Below are positions 1 to 24,013 of a stretch of 25,340 nt of DNA, piece by piece. The notes beneath the pieces were generated by a model, which had not been told where the DNA came from, made no database searches, and saw only the letters and a program-made list of their open reading frames with translations. Source of the stretch: Candidatus Babeliales bacterium (GTDB taxonomy: Bacteria > Babelota > Babeliae > Babelales > CAZZPM01); assembly GCA_016763165.1 (NCBI GenBank), contig JAESUJ010000096.1:1-25340 (forward strand), read 5' to 3'. Numbering within the stretch: the stretch's first letter is position 1; each line of letters starts with the position of its first letter. A program made the translations under genes and the position numbers.

Positions 1-2
1 AA

Positions 3-560
3 ATCATAGGTGGGAATTTCCCATTTGATGACGGAGCAGGCGGATATGAAGTCGAACCAATCAGAGGGGTCAATCCTAAGCTATCAGCGTTACTTAGCTA
101 CCTTGACGGAGCAGATGTTGGAACCAAATACATTATCTGGGCAAGATTCAGACCAGAAATCGCAGCGATCAGCGAATCTTTACGCTCGGCGTTCGGGGAG
201 GGAGCAGTTGTCGAATTTCATGGAGGAATTGACGACATTGGGCGTAGTGATGCTTCAAACGCCTTCCAACACGATAGTACCGTTCGATTTATGGTCAGCA
301 ACCAAACAGTTGGAGGTAAAGGACAGGAATGGTCAGCCGCCGATGCAATGGTCTACTTCTCCAATACATTCAGCTATGAGGATAGAAAACAAAGTGAGGA
401 GCGCGCGATTCACACCGATAAGCGCACTTCCATTTTCTATTTGGACTTGGTAGCCAACCATCCTGCAGATAAGATGATAACTACTGCATTGAAGAAGAAG
501 TTAACGATGGCACAGTGGGTGGAAGACCAACTCGAAGAAGGCAAGAGGATAGAATTATGA
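3..560 (+). CDS. SNF2-like (SF2) helicase, C-terminal RecA-like domain (5'-partial; frame is open from the window start)
   Basis: Frame 3 is stop-free from position 3 and reads ...NPKLSALL...KYIIWARF...VEFHGG...RFMVSNQTVGGKGQEWSAADAMVYFSNTFSYEDRKQSEERAIH, matching the helicase-C motif IV-VI layout of phage SNF2 proteins. The track ORF 291..560 is only its distal part. Confidence 0.85.
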   Translation: MIGGNFPFDDGAGGYEVEPIRGVNPKLSALLSYLDGADVGTKYIIWARFRPEIAAISESLRSAFGEGAVVEFHGGIDDIGRSDASNAFQHDSTVRFMVSNQTVGGKGQEWSAADAMVYFSNTFSYEDRKQSEERAIHTDKRTSIFYLDLVANHPADKMITTALKKKLTMAQWVEDQLEEGKRIEL

Positions 561-874
561 AAATATGTAATAAGTGCGATGAAGAAAAGCCGCAATCCGA
601 TTTCCACAAGGCGAAAACCACTCCTGATGGCAGATGCTACACATGCAAAGATTGTAAAAATGCCGAAACCAAGGTTCGCTATGAAAGAGCCAATGACCGT
701 AACTATAAGCTGAAAGGCGACGACTTTGCGATACTCGATATGCATAAAGACTATCAAGTGACAAAGGCTTACGTTGGCACTGGACATGGCGTAGTAGCTA
801 GTGACCATGCTGATTGGCGAACCAAAGCAAATAAACGACGTTTGGTCGTGACAGTGACACAGCGCAGGGTCTAG
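557..874 (+). CDS. Zn-ribbon (CxxC...CxxC) protein, 105 aa, with a C-terminal domain of unknown function
   Basis: ATGA overlap with the helicase stop and GAGGA RBS at 545-549. KICNKCDEEKP.SDF...DG...TCKDC is the Zn module seen N-terminal to HNH/EndoVII homing nucleases, but no HNH motif follows. Confidence 0.7.
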   Translation: MKICNKCDEEKPQSDFHKAKTTPDGRCYTCKDCKNAETKVRYERANDRNYKLKGDDFAILDMHKDYQVTKAYVGTGHGVVASDHADWRTKANKRRLVVTVTQRRV

Positions 875-940: not shown

Positions 941-970
941 TTGACACGATATGTCGTCCCATGTTATAAT
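941..970 (+). promoter_or_regulatory. sigma70 consensus promoter for the replication/Z-synthesis operon
   Basis: TTGACA (941-946), 18-nt spacer, TG extended -10 and TATAAT (965-970), in an intergenic gap. Confidence 0.85.
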
Positions 971-975
971 AGGTA

Positions 976-1272
976 TCGGTCGCGGTGACGTGGCCTAAAG
1001 AATCTCCCACTTTAGTCAATCGTATGAAATAGGGATGAGAAGGAAAACTAAAGGTTCCAACTCCATCATGGATATGTATTCGCAGTGAAGAAACCTACTG
1101 CACAAGGCCACCATGAGGTATGCAACTCGATTGATTACCGTAAGTAATCAGTGGAAACGCCTAAATAATCCACTACTTAAATCAAAAGCCGACTTGCAGA
1201 CGTAATCTGCACTTTATTCGCGGTAAAAGCCCGAATCCACTGTCACAAACCCAACAGTCCTAGGAGGACGCC
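976..1272 (+). ncRNA. Candidate structured 5' leader / cis-regulatory RNA
   Basis: About 300 nt without an ORF between the promoter and the next gene, tiled with hairpins: 995-1015, 1034-1067, 1082-1101, 1132-1150, 1195-1211, 1216-1236, 1239-1258, 1257-1269. Long-range pairings 990-996/1105-1111 and 1014-1022/1128-1136. Confidence 0.5.
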
Positions 1273-1692
1273 ATGAATACAGAATTTTCAACTAAGAGTA
1301 CCTTTAAAGAGTTAGCACTTGAAATGTACGTGCTATCCAAAGCCATAGCCGAATTAGGCTCTGACAAGTCTGCGTTACAGAAACGATATGATCTATTACG
1401 TCATAAAATCGTGCCTGATAAGCTTGACGAAGAAGAAATGCAGAACATCACCATCAAAGGCATCGGTCGTCTTGGCGCTACTCCTCAACTTCGAGTTAGT
1501 GTCCTAGCAGGCAATCGTGAAAAGCTCCAATCATGGATGTGTGAAAACGGATTCGAAGACCTAGTACAAGGCACTATCAACTCGTCTACCCTGAAAGCGT
1601 GGGTAAAAGAGCAGATGGAAGCAGGCAATGAAATACCTGATGACCTAATCAAAATTGACCCGTTCATGCTAGCAACATTAACTAAAACCTAA
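1273..1692 (+). CDS. Conserved phage replication-module protein, 139 aa (N-terminal coiled coil), function unknown
   Basis: Strong AGGAGG RBS. Coiled-coil N-terminus and a W...GF.DLV...IN..TLKAWVKE pattern typical of proteins preceding SSB/Pol A genes in such phages. Confidence 0.75.
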   Translation: MNTEFSTKSTFKELALEMYVLSKAIAELGSDKSALQKRYDLLRHKIVPDKLDEEEMQNITIKGIGRLGATPQLRVSVLAGNREKLQSWMCENGFEDLVQGTINSSTLKAWVKEQMEAGNEIPDDLIKIDPFMLATLTKT

Positions 1693-1790
1693 CCCCTTGG
1701 GCTTCCATTCGCGAGAGTGGGGTGCTCATTGGTTCTTAAATTAGGAATCAATGAGGACAAACCTGTCCCTATAACATAGAGAAGAGAATA

Positions 1791-2552
1791 ATGACTAAAT
1801 CAACAGAGTTAGCAGTAAACGAGAACCTACCTGCGTTTTTAAAGAAAGATTCAGCACGTGGCTCAGAAGAAGTATCATCAAATGACGTATCGATTCCGCG
1901 CATGTCAATAATCCAAGATTTAAGCCCACAGCGTAAAAAGAATGATGATAAATACATCACAGGTGCAGAAGAGGGCATGTCCTTTAACACCGCCACGTTG
2001 GAGCTATTTCAAAAAGCAATCAACATCATTCCAATTTACTTCCGCAAAGAGTGGATAATTTGGAAAGATATCAATAAAGGCGGCGGTTTCTTCGGTTCAT
2101 TCGATAGCGAACCGTTAGCGGTAGCAGGAATGCGTGACCTTGAAGGCAATGCCAATGACTACGAAATCGTAGACACGCATCAGCATTTCGTGCTTTTATT
2201 GAAAGAGGGTTCAACCAACGATAATCCAATCTTGGAAGAAGTGGTTATCAGTTGCTCCAAGTCCCAAATGAAGCCGAGCCGACAGTTGAACACCCTAGCT
2301 AAAATGGCAGGCGGTGACCGATTCAGCCGTCGTTACAAGCTTGAAGTCATAACCGATGAAAATCGTGCAGGTCAGAAGTTCTTCAATTGGAAGTTCACTG
2401 GTCAAGGTTTCGTTAGTGAAGCAATGTTCATCGCGGCAGAAAAATCGTACGAAGCAATCGCCTCTGGCCAACGTACAGTTCGCCAAGATTCTGAATCGTC
2501 AACGGGTCAGACAGTAGATAGTACTGCTGAAACAATCGAAGACGAATTCTAA
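1791..2552 (+). CDS. Putative phage ssDNA-binding/annealing protein, 253 aa
   Basis: Beta-rich core (IPRMSIIQDLSPQ..., IPIYFRKEWIIW), a disordered acidic tail ending ETIEDEF like T7 gp2.5-type SSBs, and position upstream of the polymerase. Confidence 0.55.
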   Translation: MTKSTELAVNENLPAFLKKDSARGSEEVSSNDVSIPRMSIIQDLSPQRKKNDDKYITGAEEGMSFNTATLELFQKAINIIPIYFRKEWIIWKDINKGGGFFGSFDSEPLAVAGMRDLEGNANDYEIVDTHQHFVLLLKEGSTNDNPILEEVVISCSKSQMKPSRQLNTLAKMAGGDRFSRRYKLEVITDENRAGQKFFNWKFTGQGFVSEAMFIAAEKSYEAIASGQRTVRQDSESSTGQTVDSTAETIEDEF

Positions 2553-2611
2553 GTAAAGAGTTTCATGGTCGCCCAAGGATGGGCACTCCCTCTTCCCAAT
2601 AAGGTACAATT

Positions 2612-2878
2612 ATGAGTGACTTCGATAATACTAATAGCGGAGCGTTACACAAGAACGACCGCAAGTCAACCCCAACCCAACCAGATTATAAAGGTGATGC
2701 AGCCCCCGTTTGCGTCCACTGTGGAGCGAAGCAAGATTTTTGGCTCTCAGCATGGATTAAAACAGCACGTAGTGGCAAAAAATGGATGTCAATAGCGTTC
2801 CAAGCGAAAGACGACCCACGCGAGAAACAAGCTCAGAAGCCATCGGACATTGACTACGACGATGACATTCCATTTTAA
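2612..2878 (+). CDS. Small SSB-like protein with a bacterial SSB C-terminal tip (DDDIPF)
   Basis: N(S)GAL.KN..K...PDYKG...W.SAW.K...G.K.MSIA pattern of small phage OB-like proteins; ends DYDDDIPF. Confidence 0.7.
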   Translation: MSDFDNTNSGALHKNDRKSTPTQPDYKGDAAPVCVHCGAKQDFWLSAWIKTARSGKKWMSIAFQAKDDPREKQAQKPSDIDYDDDIPF

Positions 2879-2903
2879 ATAACATAGAATCTGAGGGGGT
2901 TCA

Positions 2904-4751
2904 ATGGATATTTTCAAAAGTCCTGTTATAGGGCTTGATACTGAGACTACTGGTCTGCGCTACCCACGGCACAAGGCCTTCTCTCTTTCAATAGCGACAC
3001 TTGACGCAGCCCAAGGCTTCGACTTCCGCTCGCAACCACAAGACATCGAATGGCTACAGGCTCAGTTCAATGAGTATACTGGCCGTATCGTTTGTCATAA
3101 CGCATCATTCGATTTCCGCATGTGTGATTCTGCGGGTCTTGTTCTACCTATCAACCAAATGGACTGCACTAGTATACGTGCATGCCAAATCAACGAACAT
3201 GAGGGGACAATCTTCCCTTGGACTAAGCGCGCAGGATCATTCAGACTAGACGACCTTGGTTCCAAATACTTAGACGAACGCAAGTCTCAAGAATTCTATG
3301 AAGAAGCAAGGGCGTGGTTCGGCAAGAAATTGACCGTTAATCAAATCATGGCTCGGATAAGCGAATTACCGCGTGAGATAGTTGAGCCGTATCAAAACCA
3401 AGATGCGCTCCTTGCCCTGCGTTTATGGCATTGGCAAGAAAAAGAAATAGAAAGGCAAGGAATTGAGGATATAATCGCATTTGAGAGAAAGGTCATGCCT
3501 ACTCTCATAAGGGCTGAAATGCGAGGCGTAGATGTCGATATAGAAGAAGCGGAACGCGCCCAACCTAAATTAACGGCAGAAATAGACGTACTGCAATCCC
3601 AACTAAACACAATAGCAGATGGTGAATTCAATGTTAACAGCACACCGCAGGTTAGAAAATTATTTAACCCAACCGAAACAGATAATGGATGGATTGCTTG
3701 TGATGGCACTCCTCTTGAGAGCACGAAAACAGGGAATGCCTCGTTTGGAGGCGACGCACTTAGACACATTAGTCATCCTGCGGCTCCGCTCATTGTGGGA
3801 ATACGGTCGCTTATCAAAACAAGGGATACTTTCCTTGGTTCCCACATACTTAAACATGAGTACAACGGAAAGGTGTATCCTACTATCAACCAATGCAAAG
3901 GCGAGGACGGAGGCACTGGCACTGGCAGGTTATCCGTTACAACTCCTGCGCTCCAACAAATACCTGCCCGAAACAAAAAAGTTGCTGAAATCGTTAAACC
4001 TTGCTTTCTTCCTCCGTTAGGAATGAAGTGGTTGGAAACCGATTTAGCGTCATTTGAAGTACGGGTATTTGCTCATTTGGTATCGGCCTACAACGATTCA
4101 CTGGTACATGCGTACGAAGCGAAGCCAGACATGGACTTCCACCAATGGGTAGCTGATTTAATGGGCGTACCAAGGAATGCATCGTACGGCGGTGAAATAA
4201 ACGCCAAGCAATTGAACCTAGGTATGATATTCAACCAAGGGAACGGCACGATAGCACAAGATTTACAATTACCGTGGGAATGGCAAGAATTCACATCTGG
4301 CGGCGACCTCATTCGCTATAGAAAAGCGGGCAAAGAGGCGATGGAAGTAATAAACAACTACCATCAAAGGGTACGGGGCGTAAAGACGTTAGCCGAAAGA
4401 GCTAAAATGAAAGCAGAAGCAGTGGGCTTTATTAAGACTTTCACTGGCCGCAGATTACGGTTTCCTAAGGGATATAAATCATATAAGGCATCGGGGCTAC
4501 TGATACAAGCCACGTCCGCCGACATAAACAAACAAAATTGGATGCTGTGTGAAGAGGCATTAGGCAATGACGGCCACTTAATGCTAAACACACATGATTC
4601 CTATTCTATGGCCGTCCCAGAAGATTGGCGTCCAGTATTCAATAGAGTAAAAGAAGCCATAGAGCAACCCCGACTGAAAGTCCCCTTGATATTGGACTTG
4701 GATGGGGCAGGGCGCAACTGGTGGTCAGCTAAAAACGGAGAAGAAAAATAA
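2904..4751 (+). CDS. dpoZ: Family A DNA polymerase with 3'-5' exonuclease, DpoZ type (Z-preferring)
   Basis: Exo I DTETTG, Exo II HNASFD, Exo III YQNQD; motif A DLASFEVR; motif B KQLNLGMIF (L439/F443 where Pol I has F/Y); ASGLLIQ (G531 for N); motif C HDS (S566 for E). Sits in the same operon as purZ. Confidence 0.9.
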   Translation: MDIFKSPVIGLDTETTGLRYPRHKAFSLSIATLDAAQGFDFRSQPQDIEWLQAQFNEYTGRIVCHNASFDFRMCDSAGLVLPINQMDCTSIRACQINEHEGTIFPWTKRAGSFRLDDLGSKYLDERKSQEFYEEARAWFGKKLTVNQIMARISELPREIVEPYQNQDALLALRLWHWQEKEIERQGIEDIIAFERKVMPTLIRAEMRGVDVDIEEAERAQPKLTAEIDVLQSQLNTIADGEFNVNSTPQVRKLFNPTETDNGWIACDGTPLESTKTGNASFGGDALRHISHPAAPLIVGIRSLIKTRDTFLGSHILKHEYNGKVYPTINQCKGEDGGTGTGRLSVTTPALQQIPARNKKVAEIVKPCFLPPLGMKWLETDLASFEVRVFAHLVSAYNDSLVHAYEAKPDMDFHQWVADLMGVPRNASYGGEINAKQLNLGMIFNQGNGTIAQDLQLPWEWQEFTSGGDLIRYRKAGKEAMEVINNYHQRVRGVKTLAERAKMKAEAVGFIKTFTGRRLRFPKGYKSYKASGLLIQATSADINKQNWMLCEEALGNDGHLMLNTHDSYSMAVPEDWRPVFNRVKEAIEQPRLKVPLILDLDGAGRNWWSAKNGEEK

Positions 4752-7048
4752 TGAGAATAGACAAGCAGACGGTACGCGAAATTGACTCAATATCGGATTT
4801 CGCGGAACGTATATTTGCTGCTGCCACGATGTATGCGAATCAAGGCATGTATATACTACCCATAAGGATGGGGTCTAAATTGCTGCCGCCATCGAGATTT
4901 GGCATCAGCTATCAGCATGCGTCACGCAATCCCGATACAATGAAAAAGTGGTTCCATCCTGAAACAGGTAAGTTCGCAGGATGGAATATAGCACTGGCCT
5001 GCGGCAATGAAGAAGGCATAGTAGCCATCGACATAGACCCAATGGATAAGAAAGGGAACAAAGGCTTTGAATCGTTAGACGAGCTAGAGAAGGAACATGG
5101 CAAGCTAGAAGCTCCTCACCAAAGAACACCGTCAGGTGGAAGGCATTACATATATGAATTCGATGGCGTGATAGGATGCTCTTCGGGCAAGTTGGCCAAG
5201 GCCATCGATACCCGTGGTGGAGACGGTCAAGCTAGGGGACATATAGTGGCATGGCCAAGTTCGACCCCCGACGGTGACTATGTTTGGGACTTAGGTGGCG
5301 AAATTGGCGAAGCTCCTGAATGGATAGGCCAATCATTAGGCCAACCGTGGGATAGACAAACTCCCGCCCCCTCAGGTCGCGGAAGTGAGAATGTAGAAGA
5401 CGACGACGGTGAACGGATAGCAAGCCCCAAAGAAATATGGGGTATGCTACAATGTATCGACATCGACGAGCTTGAGTACGACGAGTGGGTTAAAATCGGA
5501 CAAGCGATACACAGTCAGCATCCCGATAGCGAAGGCTTGAGATTATGGGGTCGTTGGTCAGCAGGCGGAGCAAGATTCGAAAAGGGCGAATGCTCAATCA
5601 GATGGGATAGTTTCAGTTCGGGCGGCAATATCCGAATGGGGACTCTTATCCACATAGCCAAGCAGTACGGATTCAAGATTAAGCCAAAAGTGGTTGACAT
5701 AAATGGCGAACCTGCCGAATTCGCTGATATCATAGAAGCAATGAACAAAGAATGGGGAGTCATTGTCATAGGCGGCAAGACCAGAATAGTGCCAATGGGC
5801 AGAATCACCCCCAAGTCCAAGTCCATCCAATTGATGGAAATGCAAGCGTTTCAACAGTGGATGAACAATCAACGCATGGCAATAACCGATGCTAAAGGGA
5901 ACCTTAAATACGTGGAAAAATCTAAAGTGTGGCTAGCTGACGAAGACCGAAATCAATACCTAGGCGGCATGACATTCCGTCCTGACAAGACCCCCGAATT
6001 CGAAGATGACTACGGATGCCGAACACTGAACACGTGGCGCGGTTGGTCAATCGAACCCGAAGAGGGTGATTGGTCGTTAATGGAAACCCATGTGCTAGAA
6101 GTGGTCTGCAATGGCGATAAGGAGTTATGCTGTTGGGTACTGGATTGGATGGCTGACTTATTCCAAGACCCCGCCAACCCCAAAGGGTGTGCATTGGTAC
6201 TGAAAGGGCTTGAGGGGACTGGTAAGGGAACATTGATCGAAGCGATGGGCAAGACCATGGGCAGACATTATGTACACGTGACCCAAGAAAACCATCTAAT
6301 AGGGAACTTTAATGCTCACCTACGCGATGCGCTGATAATCTTCGCTGATGAAGTGGTGTACGGCGGTAGTAGGAAGACAGCAGGAACACTAAAGGCATTA
6401 GTCACCGAACGGAATCTCACGGTAGAAATGAAGGGCTTTGATGTTATGCAGTATCGCAATTGCGCACGATTGGCCATAGCATCGAACGAAGATTGGGTAG
6501 TACCTGCAGGGTCGCAATCAAGACGTTGGATGGTATTGGAGGTATCGCCCCATAGAGCCAATGACGTGGCTTACTTTGGTGCCTTGTATAAGGAATTGAA
6601 CAACGGCGGATACGAAGCAATGATATACGGGCTAATGGAGCGCGAAATAACCAGTAATCTTACCAAAGCCCCCGTGACTGAGGCATTGCAAGAACAAAGA
6701 GCGATGTACAGTTCACACGATTCGATGGCACAATGGGTATATCACGTCGTAATGAAGGGCGAAATAAAGGTAAATGACCCGACCGATGATTCATTGGAAA
6801 CAGCATGGCCGAATTATTCCGCATGGGACGATTTAATGGCTAATTACATGGAATTCTGCGAGGGAGGAAAAATGAAACCTAAACCCTCCAATTTAGCGAT
6901 ACAAGAAATGGCTAAATTCGGATTCGCCAAGAAAAGAGTAACCGTAGGAACTAGCAGGCCGTGGTTGAGACAAGTCCCGACTAGACAGGAACTAGCAGAC
7001 GCCTTGATGCAAATCAAGGGAATGAAAGTGGAGATAGAAGATGAGTAA
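4751..7048 (+). CDS. Bifunctional primase-polymerase (AEP Prim-Pol) + PriCT-2 + SF3/D5-like helicase
   Basis: AEP motifs IVAIDID, TPSGGRHY, IDTRG..HIVAWPS; PriCT-like YDEWVKIGQAIH; Walker A GLEGTGKG, Walker B IIFADE; TAATG coupling to the polymerase. Confidence 0.9.
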   Translation: MRIDKQTVREIDSISDFAERIFAAATMYANQGMYILPIRMGSKLLPPSRFGISYQHASRNPDTMKKWFHPETGKFAGWNIALACGNEEGIVAIDIDPMDKKGNKGFESLDELEKEHGKLEAPHQRTPSGGRHYIYEFDGVIGCSSGKLAKAIDTRGGDGQARGHIVAWPSSTPDGDYVWDLGGEIGEAPEWIGQSLGQPWDRQTPAPSGRGSENVEDDDGERIASPKEIWGMLQCIDIDELEYDEWVKIGQAIHSQHPDSEGLRLWGRWSAGGARFEKGECSIRWDSFSSGGNIRMGTLIHIAKQYGFKIKPKVVDINGEPAEFADIIEAMNKEWGVIVIGGKTRIVPMGRITPKSKSIQLMEMQAFQQWMNNQRMAITDAKGNLKYVEKSKVWLADEDRNQYLGGMTFRPDKTPEFEDDYGCRTLNTWRGWSIEPEEGDWSLMETHVLEVVCNGDKELCCWVLDWMADLFQDPANPKGCALVLKGLEGTGKGTLIEAMGKTMGRHYVHVTQENHLIGNFNAHLRDALIIFADEVVYGGSRKTAGTLKALVTERNLTVEMKGFDVMQYRNCARLAIASNEDWVVPAGSQSRRWMVLEVSPHRANDVAYFGALYKELNNGGYEAMIYGLMEREITSNLTKAPVTEALQEQRAMYSSHDSMAQWVYHVVMKGEIKVNDPTDDSLETAWPNYSAWDDLMANYMEFCEGGKMKPKPSNLAIQEMAKFGFAKKRVTVGTSRPWLRQVPTRQELADALMQIKGMKVEIEDE

Positions 7049-8111
7049 CTTTAACCCAACTAGAGTGAGAGAACAGATGAAGAAAGTAGATTTGATAATA
7101 GACTTACAATATGGCTCAACGGGCAAAGGCTTGATTGCAGGATACTTAGCTGAGACAAACGGCTATGATACCGTAATCAATGCTAATATGCCGAACGCAG
7201 GCCATACGTACATCAACGTTGAAGGACGTATGTGGATGCATAAGGTACTACCTAACGGTATTGTATCACCGAATTTGAAGCGTGTCATGATTGGCGCAGG
7301 GTCGGTATTCAGCATTAAACAATTGCAGAAGGAGATTGAAGGTTCCAAGGACTTACTGGATGGGGTGGAAATCTTAATCCATCCTAATGCCGTAGTCCTA
7401 CAAGACGAGCACAGTGCAATGGAGCGAAATAACCTGAGTCGCATTTCGTCCACCATGCAGGGTTCAATGGCAGCCACTATCGCTAAAATGATGCGTGACC
7501 CTGAAAACAACCCCACTGCGGCAGGCGAAATTGCAGAATACGGGCACGGATCGCAAATTTCTGAATACGTATGCACTATTGAACAGTGGCATCACGCGCT
7601 GATGAATTCCACTAAAATCTTAGCTGAGGGAGCACAGGGTTACAGCCTTGGCTTGAACGGCAAATTTTGGCCTTTTTGTACATCACGAGATTGCACTCCT
7701 GCAAGATTTATGGCCGACATGGCGATACCTTTGCCTTACCTCAATAAAGTCATCGGAACAGCGCGTTGTCATCCAATCCGCGTGGGAAACACAGCAGACG
7801 GATACAGTGGTGACGTCTATTCCGACCAAGTGGAAATCTCATTTGAACAGCTTGGTCAAGAAACTGAGCTTACTACAGTAACCAAACGCCCACGCCGTAT
7901 ATTCAGTTACAGCAGTCAGCAGATGAAAGATGCGATATTTGATTGCATGCCTGATGAAGTTTTCCTTAACTTCTGTAATTATACTGATACATATGGTCAC
8001 ATAGTACATGATATTAATATCACTGCAGAACGAATCATGGGCAGACCAGTAGTGCGCTATCTTGGTTTTGGCGCTGCGTTTCAAAACATAAAGGACAAAC
8101 TCAATGACTAA
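7041..8111 (+). CDS. purZ: N6-succino-2-amino-2'-deoxyadenylate synthase (PurA paralog, PurZ); alternative start at ATG 7077
   Basis: DLQYGSTGKG (Ser where PurA has GDEGKG), PNAGHT, EGAQG, YPF-like WPFCTSRD, RCHPIRVG, aspartate loop ELTTVTKRPRR, NFCNY (where PurA has TKLD). Confidence 0.95.
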   Translation: MSNFNPTRVREQMKKVDLIIDLQYGSTGKGLIAGYLAETNGYDTVINANMPNAGHTYINVEGRMWMHKVLPNGIVSPNLKRVMIGAGSVFSIKQLQKEIEGSKDLLDGVEILIHPNAVVLQDEHSAMERNNLSRISSTMQGSMAATIAKMMRDPENNPTAAGEIAEYGHGSQISEYVCTIEQWHHALMNSTKILAEGAQGYSLGLNGKFWPFCTSRDCTPARFMADMAIPLPYLNKVIGTARCHPIRVGNTADGYSGDVYSDQVEISFEQLGQETELTTVTKRPRRIFSYSSQQMKDAIFDCMPDEVFLNFCNYTDTYGHIVHDINITAERIMGRPVVRYLGFGAAFQNIKDKLND

Positions 8112-8361
8112 CTACGAAGAAACAATCAATATCCTCAATAATATGGCCAAAGTAAAAATGGCCATGAATTCCCACAAGGGGAGTATTGAGTCGGGCAAAA
8201 GTTTAGTCATTTTGCAACAAACGTTCGACGAGTTGAAAGAACTCGAAGAAGCAATGAAAGAAGAAAATTTGATGCACATTATTGAAGAAGCTGCAGATGT
8301 CCAAAACTTCCTAATAGCCGTCGTACATCAACAAATCGAAAGATATAGGAGCAGAAAATGA
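8104..8361 (+). CDS. Short MazG-like NTP pyrophosphohydrolase (MazZ functional candidate)
   Basis: All-helical 85 aa protein with DELKEL...EEAADV (ExxE...ExxD metal site); translationally coupled between purZ and datZ. Confidence 0.75.
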   Translation: MTNYEETINILNNMAKVKMAMNSHKGSIESGKSLVILQQTFDELKELEEAMKEENLMHIIEEAADVQNFLIAVVHQQIERYRSRK

Positions 8362-8801
8362 AGTTAGATGAACTATTAATGTGCCAAGGAATACAGCGAT
8401 GGCACATCGTCGACACTAGTCGAACCCAATCGGTGGCGGAGCACTCATTCAACGTAGCCATGATAGTATGTAAGTTCATGGAGAAAATGGGCTGCAAAAA
8501 TGAAGACATCGCCCAGAATATGGTGATGGCGTTAGCGCACGATGCCGATGAAGTCCATGAGGGCGACGTCCCTGCAATAGCTAAAAAACCGCCTATTCTC
8601 AAATTATCACTGGCGGGAAGAGCAATCCAAATAGCCGATAAATTAGAAGCTTACTGGTTCTCCCATCACTTTGTTATTGGTCCAAGACGCAGGTTCGTAA
8701 TGGAGGACACGCGCCTTAGATTCACACGTTTATTAGAACAATCCAAGCACAACGAGCGTGGTATGTGGCTTGAAGTGGAACAGGAGATGCATTGTGAGTG
8801 A
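8358..8801 (+). CDS. datZ: HD-domain phosphohydrolase, DatZ-like dATP triphosphohydrolase
   Basis: RWHIV...QSVAEHS, AHDADE..GD.P, ADKLE (H...HD...D); adjacent to purZ. Confidence 0.85.
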   Translation: MKLDELLMCQGIQRWHIVDTSRTQSVAEHSFNVAMIVCKFMEKMGCKNEDIAQNMVMALAHDADEVHEGDVPAIAKKPPILKLSLAGRAIQIADKLEAYWFSHHFVIGPRRRFVMEDTRLRFTRLLEQSKHNERGMWLEVEQEMHCE

Positions 8802-9204
8802 AAAAACATTGCGTAAATACATCACCAAGGGACTTAAGCCATTCGGTCACTTGAGCCAAATAGAAAGCCATGCTACTTCGGTTGGCTTCCCTGATACTAA
8901 CTTCTGTTTCGACGGGATAGAGGGCAATATTGAACTCAAGTATTGGTCGCCCAAGAAGGGATACGTCCTTCGCAAAAACCAAATTGCGTGGATACGTGAT
9001 CGAATCAAGGCTAAGGGTCGTGTTTTCCTATTGTTCCTACGAGAGCAGGACGGTAAGCACTACTTCTTGATAGAAATGGATGCTATGTCATTAGCGGCAG
9101 TATCGAAAACGTCGAAAGCAGCAGAATGGGAAGCTCAATCCTGTGTACAGTGGGACGGACGCATAGACTTTGAAGAACTAGAGGAGTTTTTAATCGATGA
9201 ATAA
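8794..9204 (+). CDS. PD-(D/E)xK nuclease, Holliday-junction resolvase/VRR-NUC-like (GTG start at 8794 preferred over 8758)
   Basis: SEK.L...IE...GFPD...IELK...Q..W motif; CAGGAG RBS at 8781-8786; overlaps the datZ stop. Confidence 0.8.
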   Translation: MSEKTLRKYITKGLKPFGHLSQIESHATSVGFPDTNFCFDGIEGNIELKYWSPKKGYVLRKNQIAWIRDRIKAKGRVFLLFLREQDGKHYFLIEMDAMSLAAVSKTSKAAEWEAQSCVQWDGRIDFEELEEFLIDE

Positions 9205-9445
9205 ATTAGATAAGATATTAGAAGAACGCGGTAAGACGAATGGTGATTTCACTGAAATGTGCACTACGATACAACGGTTGAAGCAGGCCATGCTGATGGG
9301 GCATATGAAACGTGAATCATTCCACAATGAGGCAATCGATATGATATGTCATAAACTAGGTCGTATTGCGGCGGGAGACCCAAACAAAGAAGACCACTGG
9401 CGCGACATAGCAGGCTATGCGACACTAGTGGCCGATCGAGTTTAG
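9197..9445 (+). CDS. DUF6378-like small helical protein (nucleotide-metabolism associated)
   Basis: LEERGK..GDF...IDMICHKLGRI..GDP...DHWRDIAGYATL matches the family pattern as I recall it; coupled to the nuclease gene. Confidence 0.7.
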   Translation: MNKLDKILEERGKTNGDFTEMCTTIQRLKQAMLMGHMKRESFHNEAIDMICHKLGRIAAGDPNKEDHWRDIAGYATLVADRV

Positions 9446-23984: not shown

Positions 23985-24013
23985 ATTATAACACATGGGG
24001 AGCCGTTTGTCAA
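23985..24013 (-). promoter_or_regulatory. sigma70 consensus promoter for the capsid gene and downstream genes
   Basis: On the - strand: TTGACA (24013-24008), 17-nt spacer, TG extended -10, TATAAT (23990-23985), just downstream of the scaffold stop. Confidence 0.85.

What the first reader, a model, noticed from the sequence alone, without database searches (positions are those of the whole stretch)
941..9445. Complete 2-aminoadenine (Z-genome) operon in a podovirus-like phage, with an atypical accessory set
Seen: one translationally coupled run of DpoZ-type polymerase, PrimPol-helicase, PurZ, short MazG-like protein, DatZ-like HD hydrolase, resolvase and DUF6378-like protein. Known: PurZ makes the dZMP precursor from dGMP + Asp, DatZ removes dATP, MazZ supplies dGMP and DpoZ favours dZTP. 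Inference: the virion DNA has Z:T three-H-bond pairs, so each A in this sequence may be Z in vivo. The pathway is known, but this combination of accessory variants may be undescribed.
Basis: partly seen in the sequence, partly recalled or inferred. Interest (0 to 1): 0.85.

Follow-up and report, generated by a model that had tools for sequence, protein, structure and literature searches.

The report
Standard Z-base module, marine podophage
This is part of the genome of an uncultured marine phage that carries the already published gene set for replacing adenine with 2-aminoadenine in its DNA, in the same order as in the well-studied Vibrio phage phiVC8, so it is a new example of a known system rather than a new one.

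Summary
On the + strand, a perfect sigma-70 promoter (941-970) precedes DUF7307, Pam3-gp34-like and small SSB-like genes. An unbroken run of overlapping genes follows: DpoZ, PrimPol-helicase, PurZ, an 85-aa MazG-like protein, a 147-aa DatZ, a RecU/Hjc-like nuclease (start corrected to 8794) and DUF6378.

PurZ and DpoZ pass NCBI's curated PurZ and DpoZ models. They are 65% and 55% identical to the crystallised phiVC8 enzymes and keep the published marker residues. A Z-substituted genome is therefore the best inference, though base composition cannot be tested here.

The "atypical, possibly undescribed accessory set" is not supported:
- Every gene has an ortholog in the same order in phiVC8, Alteromonas phage ZP6, Vibrio phage K300 and two ~38-40 kb marine metagenome contigs.
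- The short MazG-like protein is the published "MazZ-2" variant.
- DUF6378 is common in phages without PurZ.

The one real deviation is a compact DatZ. It lacks about 20 loop residues and has P79I and K116Q. A metagenomic clade shares this form, and it is under purifying selection.

The contig is a GC outlier in a small 35%-GC bin and is probably mis-binned. The scan has reported phiVC8-like Z modules before on other DNA. Verdict: new member of a known kind.

The parts
3..560 (+). C-terminal 185 aa of an SNF2/SF2 helicase. The N-terminal part lies on contig C17 of the same bin.
   Evidence: phrog_62 DNA helicase. 84% identical to the L007 helicase and 43-47% to those of phiVC8, ZP6 and K300. 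A 129-nt exact overlap joins the window to C17.
941..970 (+). Perfect sigma-70 consensus promoter with extended -10 (TTGACA-N18-TATAAT, TGn), in the only large intergenic gap upstream of the replication/Z module.
   Evidence: 12 of 12 matches. 0.00 exact sites expected in shuffles. A site at the same place occurs in L007, phiVC8 and K300.
1273..1692 (+). DUF7307 (Pam3 gp33-like) protein, ortholog of phiVC8 p33.
   Evidence: PF23984 E 5.9e-32. 37% identical to phiVC8 p33 and 82% to L007.
1791..2552 (+). Pam3 gp34-like protein, ortholog of phiVC8 p32.
   Evidence: PF23977 E 1.2e-67. 42-52% identical to the phiVC8, ZP6 and K300 proteins.
2612..2878 (+). Small (88 aa) SSB-like protein.
   Evidence: phrog_18154 and phrog_7364, single-strand DNA binding protein. 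47% identical to ZP6 gp26. No Pfam hit.
2904..4751 (+). DpoZ, a family A DNA polymerase with 3'-5' exonuclease, of the phiVC8-like subfamily.
   Evidence: NF038380 phage_DpoZ_1 scores 822.8 bits against a cut-off of 500. PDB 7PBK scores 756 bits. Markers L439, F443, G531 and S566 and all three insertions are present.
4751..7048 (+). PrimPol with PriCT_2 and a DUF5906/VapE-like helicase domain (primase-helicase).
   Evidence: PF09250, PF08707 and PF19263. 44-46% identical to the phiVC8, ZP6 and K300 primases.
7041..8111 (+). PurZ, succino-amino-deoxyadenylate synthase.
   Evidence: NF038379 scores 362 bits against a cut-off of 300, while the PurA models fall far below theirs. 65% identical to phiVC8 PurZ, PDB 6FM1. 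S26, T278, F311, N313 and Y314 are retained. It sits inside the PurZ clade in a tree.
8104..8361 (+). MazZ-2, the short (85 aa) MazG/HisE-like NTP pyrophosphohydrolase of phiVC8-type Z clusters.
   Evidence: PF01503 scores 22.7 bits against a cut-off of 21.3. 51-58% identical to phiVC8 p26 and ZP6 gp22 in the alignment. E43-x-x-E46 and E62-x-x-D65 are invariant. The variant is named in PMC8342488.
8358..8801 (+). Compact DatZ (147 aa), an HD dATP triphosphohydrolase homolog lacking about 20 residues after the GD...K segment.
   Evidence: PF12917 and phrog_7076. The predicted fold matches S-2L DatZ (6ZPA) best, TM 0.76. Residue map. Relatives of 146-154 aa share the compact form. dN/dS is 0.09 against L007.
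8794..9204 (+). PD-(D/E)xK nuclease with a RecU/Hjc Holliday-junction-resolvase-like fold (136 aa), ortholog of phiVC8 p23 and ZP6 gp20.
   Evidence: Model pLDDT 85.8. Best PDB matches are RecU 5FDK and 1RZN (TM 0.64-0.65) and Hjc 1HH1. D34 and E47-L-K49 are invariant. Orthologs.
9197..9445 (+). DUF6378 protein (82 aa), the last gene of the run. Ortholog of phiVC8 p22 and ZP6 gp19.
   Evidence: PF19905 scores 35.3 bits against a cut-off of 27.1. Orthologs. Homologs in 285 phage records, many from phage groups without PurZ.

Best explanation
The window is about two thirds of the ~39 kb genome of an uncultured marine podophage. It belongs to the phiVC8 (Enhodamvirus) / ZP6 (Mareflavirus) group and carries that group's standard replication and Z-base module.

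Inferred mechanism, by homology to characterised enzymes:
1. Host RNA polymerase starts at the consensus promoter at 941.
2. MazZ-2 turns dGTP into dGMP.
3. PurZ condenses dGMP with aspartate, using ATP, to make dSMP.
4. Host PurB and nucleotide kinases carry dSMP on to dZTP.
5. DatZ removes dATP.
6. DpoZ, working with the PrimPol-helicase, SSB and SNF2 helicase, copies the genome with Z opposite T.

The RecU/Hjc-like nuclease and DUF6378 are general replication-module genes and not Z-specific parts.

Shown here: gene content, order, family membership, marker residues, purifying selection, and recurrence in independent samples. Inferred: all enzyme activities and the presence of Z in the DNA.
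For: - **PurZ:** it passes NCBIfam NF038379 (362 bits, cut-off 300) and fails the PurA models. It is 65% identical to phiVC8 PurZ (474 bits to 6FM1, against 38 bits to E. coli PurA). It keeps Ser in the P-loop where PurA has Asp, and keeps T262, F295, N297 and Y298. It nests in the PurZ clade.
- **DpoZ:** it passes NF038380 (823 bits, cut-off 500). It carries all four marker substitutions and all three clade-specific insertions described in PMC8599892.
- **DatZ:** the metal ligands and the R19, W20, I22 and K81 equivalents are retained. The best fold match is 6ZPA.
- **MazZ-2:** it is orthologous to phiVC8 p26 and keeps the four acidic residues.
- **Synteny:** gene order is identical in phiVC8, ZP6, K300, L007 and L008.
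- **Selection:** dN/dS is 0.04-0.14 for six of the seven genes against L007; MazZ-2 gave no ratio because synonymous sites are saturated.
- **Recurrence:** the same sequence is found in four runs of three studies.
- **Precedent:** per PMC8342488 and PMC8599892, phiVC8 PurZ and DpoZ are biochemically characterised, and the papers treat phiVC8 as a ZTGC-DNA phage.
Against: - No direct data on base composition exist for this phage.
- DatZ deviates from every characterised DatZ. It lacks about 20 residues and has P79I and K116Q, at positions reported as conserved and substrate-contacting.
- DpoZ has Val where R161 (R or K in its relatives) sits on exonuclease helix E2.
- In the papers I read, I found no direct assay of the short MazZ-2 variant.
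- The contig is incomplete, so further nucleotide-metabolism genes cannot be excluded. None was seen in the adjoining contig C17.
Confidence: 0.85

Rival explanations
1. The module is only partly functional. The compact DatZ has lost or changed its dATPase activity, so adenine is excluded only by DpoZ's preference and the genome is a mixed A/Z genome.
For: DatZ lacks about 20 residues next to the flexible lid over the base. It has I in place of the base-stabilising P79 and Q in place of the gamma-phosphate-binding K116. DpoZ alone gives a preference, not absolute exclusion.
Against: The metal ligands and the R19, W20, I22 and K81 equivalents are intact. The fold still matches DatZ best. The compact form is conserved in relatives at 44-82% identity, with dN/dS 0.09. 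An Arg three residues upstream (R88; Arg in seven of the eight compact sequences, Lys in P0008) could take over the role of K116 (inference).
Confidence: 0.1
2. The accessory set is a new, undescribed combination.
For: Megablast finds no near-identical phage record. DatZ is shorter than in any isolate. The phiVC8 HNH gene p30 and the small ORF p24 are absent.
Against: All eleven + strand genes from the helicase to DUF6378 (all but the small HNH-like ORF) have orthologs in the same order in phiVC8, ZP6 and K300 and in two metagenome contigs. The module is described in PMC8515928 and PMC8342488, and MazZ-2 is a named variant.
Confidence: 0.04
3. The PurZ-like gene is an ordinary PurA-type auxiliary metabolic gene that boosts AMP synthesis, and the DNA is normal ATGC.
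For: Pfam sees only the general Adenylsucc_synt family.
Against: PurA models score 100-117 bits against cut-offs of 368-395, while the PurZ model passes. The protein has the PurZ Ser in place of PurA Asp13 and sits deep inside the PurZ clade. It is linked to DatZ, MazZ-2 and DpoZ.
Confidence: 0.01

Closest known systems
Vibrio phage phiVC8 (Enhodamvirus VC8, NC_027118) replication/Z module: p34 helicase to p22
   Same: Same genes in the same order: SNF2 helicase, p33, p32, SSB, DpoZ, primase, PurZ, MazZ-2 (p26), DatZ (p25), nuclease (p23), DUF6378 (p22), followed by convergent tail genes. A consensus promoter sits upstream of p33. Protein identities: PurZ 65%, DpoZ 55%, MazZ-2 51%, primase 47%.
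   Different: This phage has no HNH gene between SSB and DpoZ and no p24 ORF. Its SSB is 88 aa rather than 171 aa. Its DatZ is 147 aa rather than 170 aa, with a loop deletion, I rather than L at the I22 position, and Q rather than K at K116. DNA identity is only about 65% over 38% of the 5.9 kb query. The host is unknown.
Alteromonas phage ZP6 (Mareflavirus ZP6, NC_070953)
   Same: A marine podophage with the same module and order. It is the closest isolate for DpoZ (64%), MazZ-2 (58%) and gp34-like (52%). Its PurZ shares the ISSTMQGS loop and the GYSGD insert. The module is described in PMC8515928.
   Different: ZP6 DatZ is full length (171 aa). ZP6 has an endolysin and extra small ORFs in the early region. 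DNA identity is about 66% over 47% of the 5.9 kb query.
Uncultured marine contigs: ENA ERZ510998 NODE_1202 (39.6 kb, L007) and Tara ERR594346 contig (38.2 kb, L008)
   Same: Identical gene order, including the compact DatZ (147 and 154 aa). L007 is about 80% identical in DNA over 8.3 kb and 76-90% in protein for the module genes (the small HNH-like ORF only 62% over part).
   Different: They are unannotated and unnamed metagenome assemblies with no published description that I found. L008 keeps Lys at the K116 position.
Cyanophage S-2L Z-cluster (DatZ 6ZPA, MazZ 7ODY, PurZ 7ODX)
   Same: The same pathway logic. The DatZ specificity pair W20/I22 is identical here (W15/I17).
   Different: S-2L is a siphovirus with MazZ-1, no DpoZ (PrimPol only) and a 175-aa DatZ. 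Its PurZ is only 38% identical.

Membership tests
PurZ (succino-amino-deoxyadenylate synthase) | Scores above the curated cut-off of the PurZ model and below those of the PurA models | tested here: met
   NF038379 scores 362.2 bits (cut-off 300). PurA models score 117, 100 and 85 bits against cut-offs of 368, 395 and 402.
PurZ (succino-amino-deoxyadenylate synthase) | [quoted passage not shown] | tested here: met
   S26, Y24 (Tyr, as in S-2L) and T278.
PurZ (succino-amino-deoxyadenylate synthase) | ATP-type donor pocket (phiVC8 F295, N297, Y298), as opposed to PurZ0 or PurA | tested here: met
   F311, N313 and Y314; the NFCNY motif is identical.
PurZ (succino-amino-deoxyadenylate synthase) | Falls inside the PurZ clade in a phylogeny rooted on PurA | tested here: met
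   IQ-TREE LG+G4 with 13 sequences places it sister to L007 (98/91), inside the clade that holds phiVC8, ZP6 and S-2L PurZ and apart from PurZ0 and E. coli PurA. A first PMSF tree was unresolved.
PurZ (succino-amino-deoxyadenylate synthase) | Uses dGMP plus Asp to make dSMP | not testable with these tools
   Needs an enzyme assay.
DpoZ, phiVC8-like subfamily (DpoZ-2 in PMC12884076, NCBIfam phage_DpoZ_1) | Scores above the curated cut-off of the DpoZ model | tested here: met
   NF038380 scores 822.8 bits (cut-off 500). DNA polymerase I models score 156 bits against a cut-off of 720.
DpoZ, phiVC8-like subfamily (DpoZ-2 in PMC12884076, NCBIfam phage_DpoZ_1) | Marker substitutions L455, F459, G548 and S583, and three insertions (349-353, 442-448, 473-491) | tested here: met
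   L439, F443, G531 and S566. The GEDGG insertion is identical; the ASYGGEI and PWEWQEFTSGGDLIRYRK insertions are present.
DpoZ, phiVC8-like subfamily (DpoZ-2 in PMC12884076, NCBIfam phage_DpoZ_1) | Active 3'-5' exonuclease (D26, E28, D85) with helix E2 residues R161 (R or K) and M165 | tested here: inconclusive
   D12, E14, D70 and M149 are present, but R161 is V145 here. The paper reports only R or K at this site.
DpoZ, phiVC8-like subfamily (DpoZ-2 in PMC12884076, NCBIfam phage_DpoZ_1) | Prefers dZTP over dATP | not testable with these tools
   Needs a primer-extension assay.
DatZ (dATP triphosphohydrolase, HD / YfbR-like) | HD metal ligands H34, H66, D67 and D119, and phosphate-binding R19 and K81 | tested here: met
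   H29, H61, D62, D94, R14 and K76; invariant in 14 sequences.
DatZ (dATP triphosphohydrolase, HD / YfbR-like) | Specificity pair W20 (deoxyribose) and I22 (excludes the 2-amino group) | tested here: met
   W15 and I17, the exact S-2L pair, which was seen only in dZ-enriched contigs in bioRxiv 10.1101/2025.10.22.683976.
DatZ (dATP triphosphohydrolase, HD / YfbR-like) | P79 (base-stabilising) and K116 (gamma-phosphate), reported as conserved among DatZ homologs, plus the full-length segment between K81 and K116 | tested here: not met
   I74 and Q91. About 20 residues (S-2L ~83-103) are absent. Metagenome relatives P0001, P0002 and P0006 share both substitutions (P0003 and P0004 keep Pro but have Gln at K116), and all eight compact sequences share the deletion.
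DatZ (dATP triphosphohydrolase, HD / YfbR-like) | DatZ-like fold | tested here: met
   AlphaFold2 model pLDDT 81.8. The best PDB match is 6ZPA (E 8.9e-5, TM 0.76), ahead of YfbR and OxsA.
MazZ-2 (phiVC8-like short MazG/HisE NTP pyrophosphohydrolase) | Orthology to phiVC8 p26 and a position between purZ and datZ | tested here: met
   51-58% identical to phiVC8 and ZP6 in the alignment. The gene overlaps purZ by 8 nt and datZ by 4 nt.
MazZ-2 (phiVC8-like short MazG/HisE NTP pyrophosphohydrolase) | Four conserved acidic residues (EXXE...EXXD) and a C-terminal basic residue matching S-2L R83 | tested here: met
   E43, E46, E62 and D65, with R82, R84 and K85; invariant across the three aligned sequences (this phage, phiVC8, ZP6), and the motifs are visible in K300, L007 and L008.
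MazZ-2 (phiVC8-like short MazG/HisE NTP pyrophosphohydrolase) | Hydrolyses dGTP to dGMP | not testable with these tools
   Needs an assay. I found no direct assay of this short variant in the papers I read.
Z-genome (ZTGC-DNA) phage | 2-aminoadenine replaces adenine in virion DNA | not testable with these tools
   Sequence data read Z as A. LC-MS or restriction-resistance enrichment is needed.

The most novel reading that the evidence does not exclude
The compact DatZ is shared by this phage and a marine metagenomic clade. It lacks about 20 residues beside the lid over the base, and in this phage and its closest relatives has P79I and K116Q. It could be a functionally distinct DatZ subtype, for example with a different substrate range (dADP or dAMP), different kinetics or a different oligomeric state.

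Separately, the clade's uniformly perfect sigma-70 promoters with extended -10 could be an adaptation that lets host RNA polymerase open -10 boxes made harder to melt by Z:T pairs.
Probability: 0.2. Interest if true: 0.45.

Novelty: new member of a known kind. Interest (0 to 1): 0.25.

Why it matters
It adds an uncultured, recurrent marine lineage to the phiVC8/ZP6 group of Z-genome podophages. The lineage was found in seawater, marine and subsurface metagenomes from three studies. It also shows that the published module is conserved gene for gene in that lineage.

Practical value is modest:
- A natural short DatZ variant that could be tested to map which parts of DatZ are dispensable.
- A caution that this phage contig should not be read as part of the small 35%-GC genome it was binned with.

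It does not change the understanding of the pathway.

Tried and rejected
- Megablast of 941-9445 against phage records gave no match. Relatives appear only at the protein level or with sensitive blastn.
- Rfam at gathering thresholds and a tRNA scan of the window found nothing.
- A first PurZ tree under a mixture model was unresolved, with very long branches. It was replaced by an LG+G4 tree.
- The DatZ C-terminal half gave no family hit, so I considered a frameshift or truncated gene. This is rejected. The alignment resumes after a clean in-frame deletion, relatives share it, independent assemblies show no indel, and dN/dS is 0.09.
- I briefly read minus-frame hits in contig C17 as an inverted diverged duplicate. 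They are antisense-frame matches of the same helicase region, so there is no duplication.
- The large terminase, portal, small terminase, p10 and endolysin of phiVC8 found no match in the bin by tblastn; only the window's own structural genes matched. Pfam later found a small-terminase N-terminus on C17.
- No PurA other than this PurZ was found in the bin.
This is rejected. ZP6, BCSR129, L007 and L008 share them, and phiVC8 and K300 are the exceptions.
- DUF6378 as a Z-pathway component is rejected as a Z-specific part. It is widespread in Brucella, Salmonella, Klebsiella and Nitratiruptor phages.

Full report
**What is there**

The window is a whole contig, C80 of a 0.74-Mb, 117-contig bin. 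Its + strand carries these features:
- the 3' end of an SNF2-type helicase (3-560)
- a small HNH/EndoVII-like ORF
- a 400-nt gap holding a perfect sigma-70 promoter with extended -10 (941-970)
- DUF7307 (1273-1692)
- a Pam3-gp34-like gene (1791-2552)
- an 88-aa SSB-like gene (2612-2878)

An uninterrupted run of seven genes follows, with junctions that overlap by 1, 8, 8, 4, 8 and 8 nt:
- a family A polymerase (2904-4751)
- PrimPol-PriCT-helicase (4751-7048)
- an adenylosuccinate-synthetase homolog (7041-8111)
- an 85-aa MazG/HisE-like protein (8104-8361)
- a 147-aa HD hydrolase (8358-8801)
- a small nuclease
- a DUF6378 protein (9197-9445)

The nuclease most likely begins at GTG 8794, behind an AGGAG, and not at 8758. 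Independent gene calls agree. The minus strand carries podovirus structural genes: tail fibre, internal virion proteins, tail tubular A and B, major capsid and scaffold. The coordinate 941 is the promoter, not a gene.

**Is it real?**

Contigs from four public runs in three separate studies (seawater 2019, subsurface 2017, marine 2015) match 941-9445 with no indels and only three single-base differences. Several of them span the short HD hydrolase.

**Family membership**

*Polymerase.* It passes NCBI's curated DpoZ model, NF038380, with 823 bits against a cut-off of 500. Ordinary Pol I models are far below threshold. It scores 756 bits to the phiVC8 DpoZ crystal structure 7PBK. It has all four substitutions (L439, F443, G531, S566) and all three insertions that PMC8599892 lists for phiVC8-like DpoZ, and the exonuclease carboxylates are intact. 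One helix-E2 residue differs: R161 is Val here.

*Synthetase.* It passes the curated PurZ model, NF038379, with 362 bits against a cut-off of 300, and fails every PurA model. It is 65% identical to phiVC8 PurZ (6FM1). It has Ser where PurA has Asp13 and keeps the T262, F295, N297 and Y298 equivalents. It sits inside the PurZ clade in a tree rooted on E. coli PurA. The ISSTMQGS loop and GYSGD insert that looked unusual are the majority state in this clade.

*MazG-like protein.* It is the ortholog of phiVC8 p26 and ZP6 gp22 (51-58% identity). Its EXXE...EXXD acidic residues and C-terminal basic residues are conserved. This short form was named MazZ-2 (phiVC8-like) in PMC8342488.

*HD hydrolase.* It keeps the DatZ metal ligands, the R19 and K81 equivalents, and the exact W20/I22 specificity pair of S-2L DatZ. 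Its predicted structure matches 6ZPA better than any other PDB entry.

*Nuclease.* The predicted fold is closest to the Holliday-junction resolvases RecU and Hjc, with an invariant D...ELK motif. "Resolvase" is therefore a fair fold-level label.

**Is the accessory set atypical?**

No. A tblastn of all twelve + strand proteins finds orthologs of all but the small HNH-like ORF in the same order in phiVC8, ZP6 and K300, and most of them in Burkholderia phage BCSR129. K300 has an unannotated MazZ-2.

Two uncultured marine contigs of 39.6 and 38.2 kb have the identical layout. The first is about 80% identical in DNA over 8.3 kb.

The ZP6 paper (PMC8515928) already describes this module and its conservation in Enhodamvirus and ZP6-like viruses.

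DUF6378 homologs occur in 285 phage records, dominated by Salmonella, Klebsiella and Brucella phages. These groups are absent or rare among the 210 PurZ-bearing records, so DUF6378 is not a Z-specific gene.

**The one deviation**

DatZ is 147 aa, against 170-194 aa in isolates. About 20 residues that follow the GD...K segment are missing (S-2L roughly 83-103). P79 is Ile and K116 is Gln. PMC8065100 reports P79 as conserved or conservatively substituted and K116 as strictly conserved; both contact the substrate.

Eight metagenomic relatives of 146-204 aa, at 29-82% identity, share the deletion. dN/dS against the closest relative is 0.09. This is a maintained subtype and not decay. Its activity is unknown.

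**Mechanism**

By homology:
1. MazZ-2 supplies dGMP.
2. PurZ makes dSMP.
3. Host PurB and kinases finish dZTP. As for phiVC8, these steps are not phage-encoded (PMC8342488).
4. DatZ removes dATP.
5. DpoZ, with the PrimPol-helicase, replicates with Z.

All activities, and the presence of Z in the DNA, are inferred. I put 0.85 on a largely Z-substituted genome.

**Context**

The contig has 44.9% GC in a bin with a median of 35.0%, and it is the longest contig in the bin. A second outlier contig, C17 (7.5 kb, 47% GC), joins the window's left end through a 129-nt exact overlap. It carries the helicase N-terminus, early genes and the start of the small terminase. Together the two contigs give about 32.7 kb of a ~39 kb genome. 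The large terminase and portal are not in the bin. The phage is probably mis-binned, and the host is unknown.

**Verdict**

This is a new member of a known kind. The scan has already reported several phiVC8-like Z modules on other DNA.

Noticed in passing
window 941-970 (+) and 23985-24013 (-); L018 (contig C17) 2142-2170, 3372-3400, 5299-5327, 6160-6188 (-), 6480-6508, 7001-7029 (+): There are eight exact TTGACA-N16-18-TATAAT sites in about 33 kb, where shuffles of the window expect 0.00. All have an extended -10 (TGn), and most have TTGGGG just 5' of the -35. The site upstream of the DUF7307 gene is conserved in place in L007, phiVC8 and K300. RNAP-less Z-genome podophages may need maximal promoters because Z:T pairs make the -10 box harder to melt. 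This is speculation.
   Followed up: partly
contig C17 of the same bin (L018 1-7521), joining window 1-129: A second contig of the same phage (47% GC). It overlaps the window's left end by 129 identical bases. It carries the helicase N-terminus, early genes, a tandem-repeat-containing ORF and the N-terminus of the small terminase.
   Followed up: partly
whole bin G000 (117 contigs): The bin has a median GC of 35%, but several contigs are outliers: C80 45%, C17 47%, two at 52% and C53 at 60%. The bin is therefore contaminated. No PurA homolog other than the phage PurZ was found in it.
   Followed up: partly
window 1070-1128: In runs X1 and X2, a contig matches only this 59-nt piece of the long leader and continues into unrelated sequence on both sides. 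The piece may therefore be a short element shared with another genome. No Rfam family matches the window.
   Followed up: no
window 515-874 (likely start ATG 557): A small Cys-rich HNH/EndoVII-like ORF overlaps the helicase stop (ATGA). The closest relative L007 has two small ORFs at this spot, and the phiVC8 HNH gene sits elsewhere, between SSB and DpoZ.
   Followed up: no
L004 (Vibrio phage K300) 10064-10312: The public annotation of K300 leaves the MazZ-2 gene uncalled. tblastn finds it between purZ and datZ, at 48% identity to this window's protein.
   Followed up: partly
window 3336-3338 (DpoZ residue V145): The helix-E2 residue equivalent to phiVC8 DpoZ R161 is Val here. It is reported as R or K in relatives. 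The R161A/M165A mutant lowered proofreading and raised Z-over-A selectivity.
   Followed up: no
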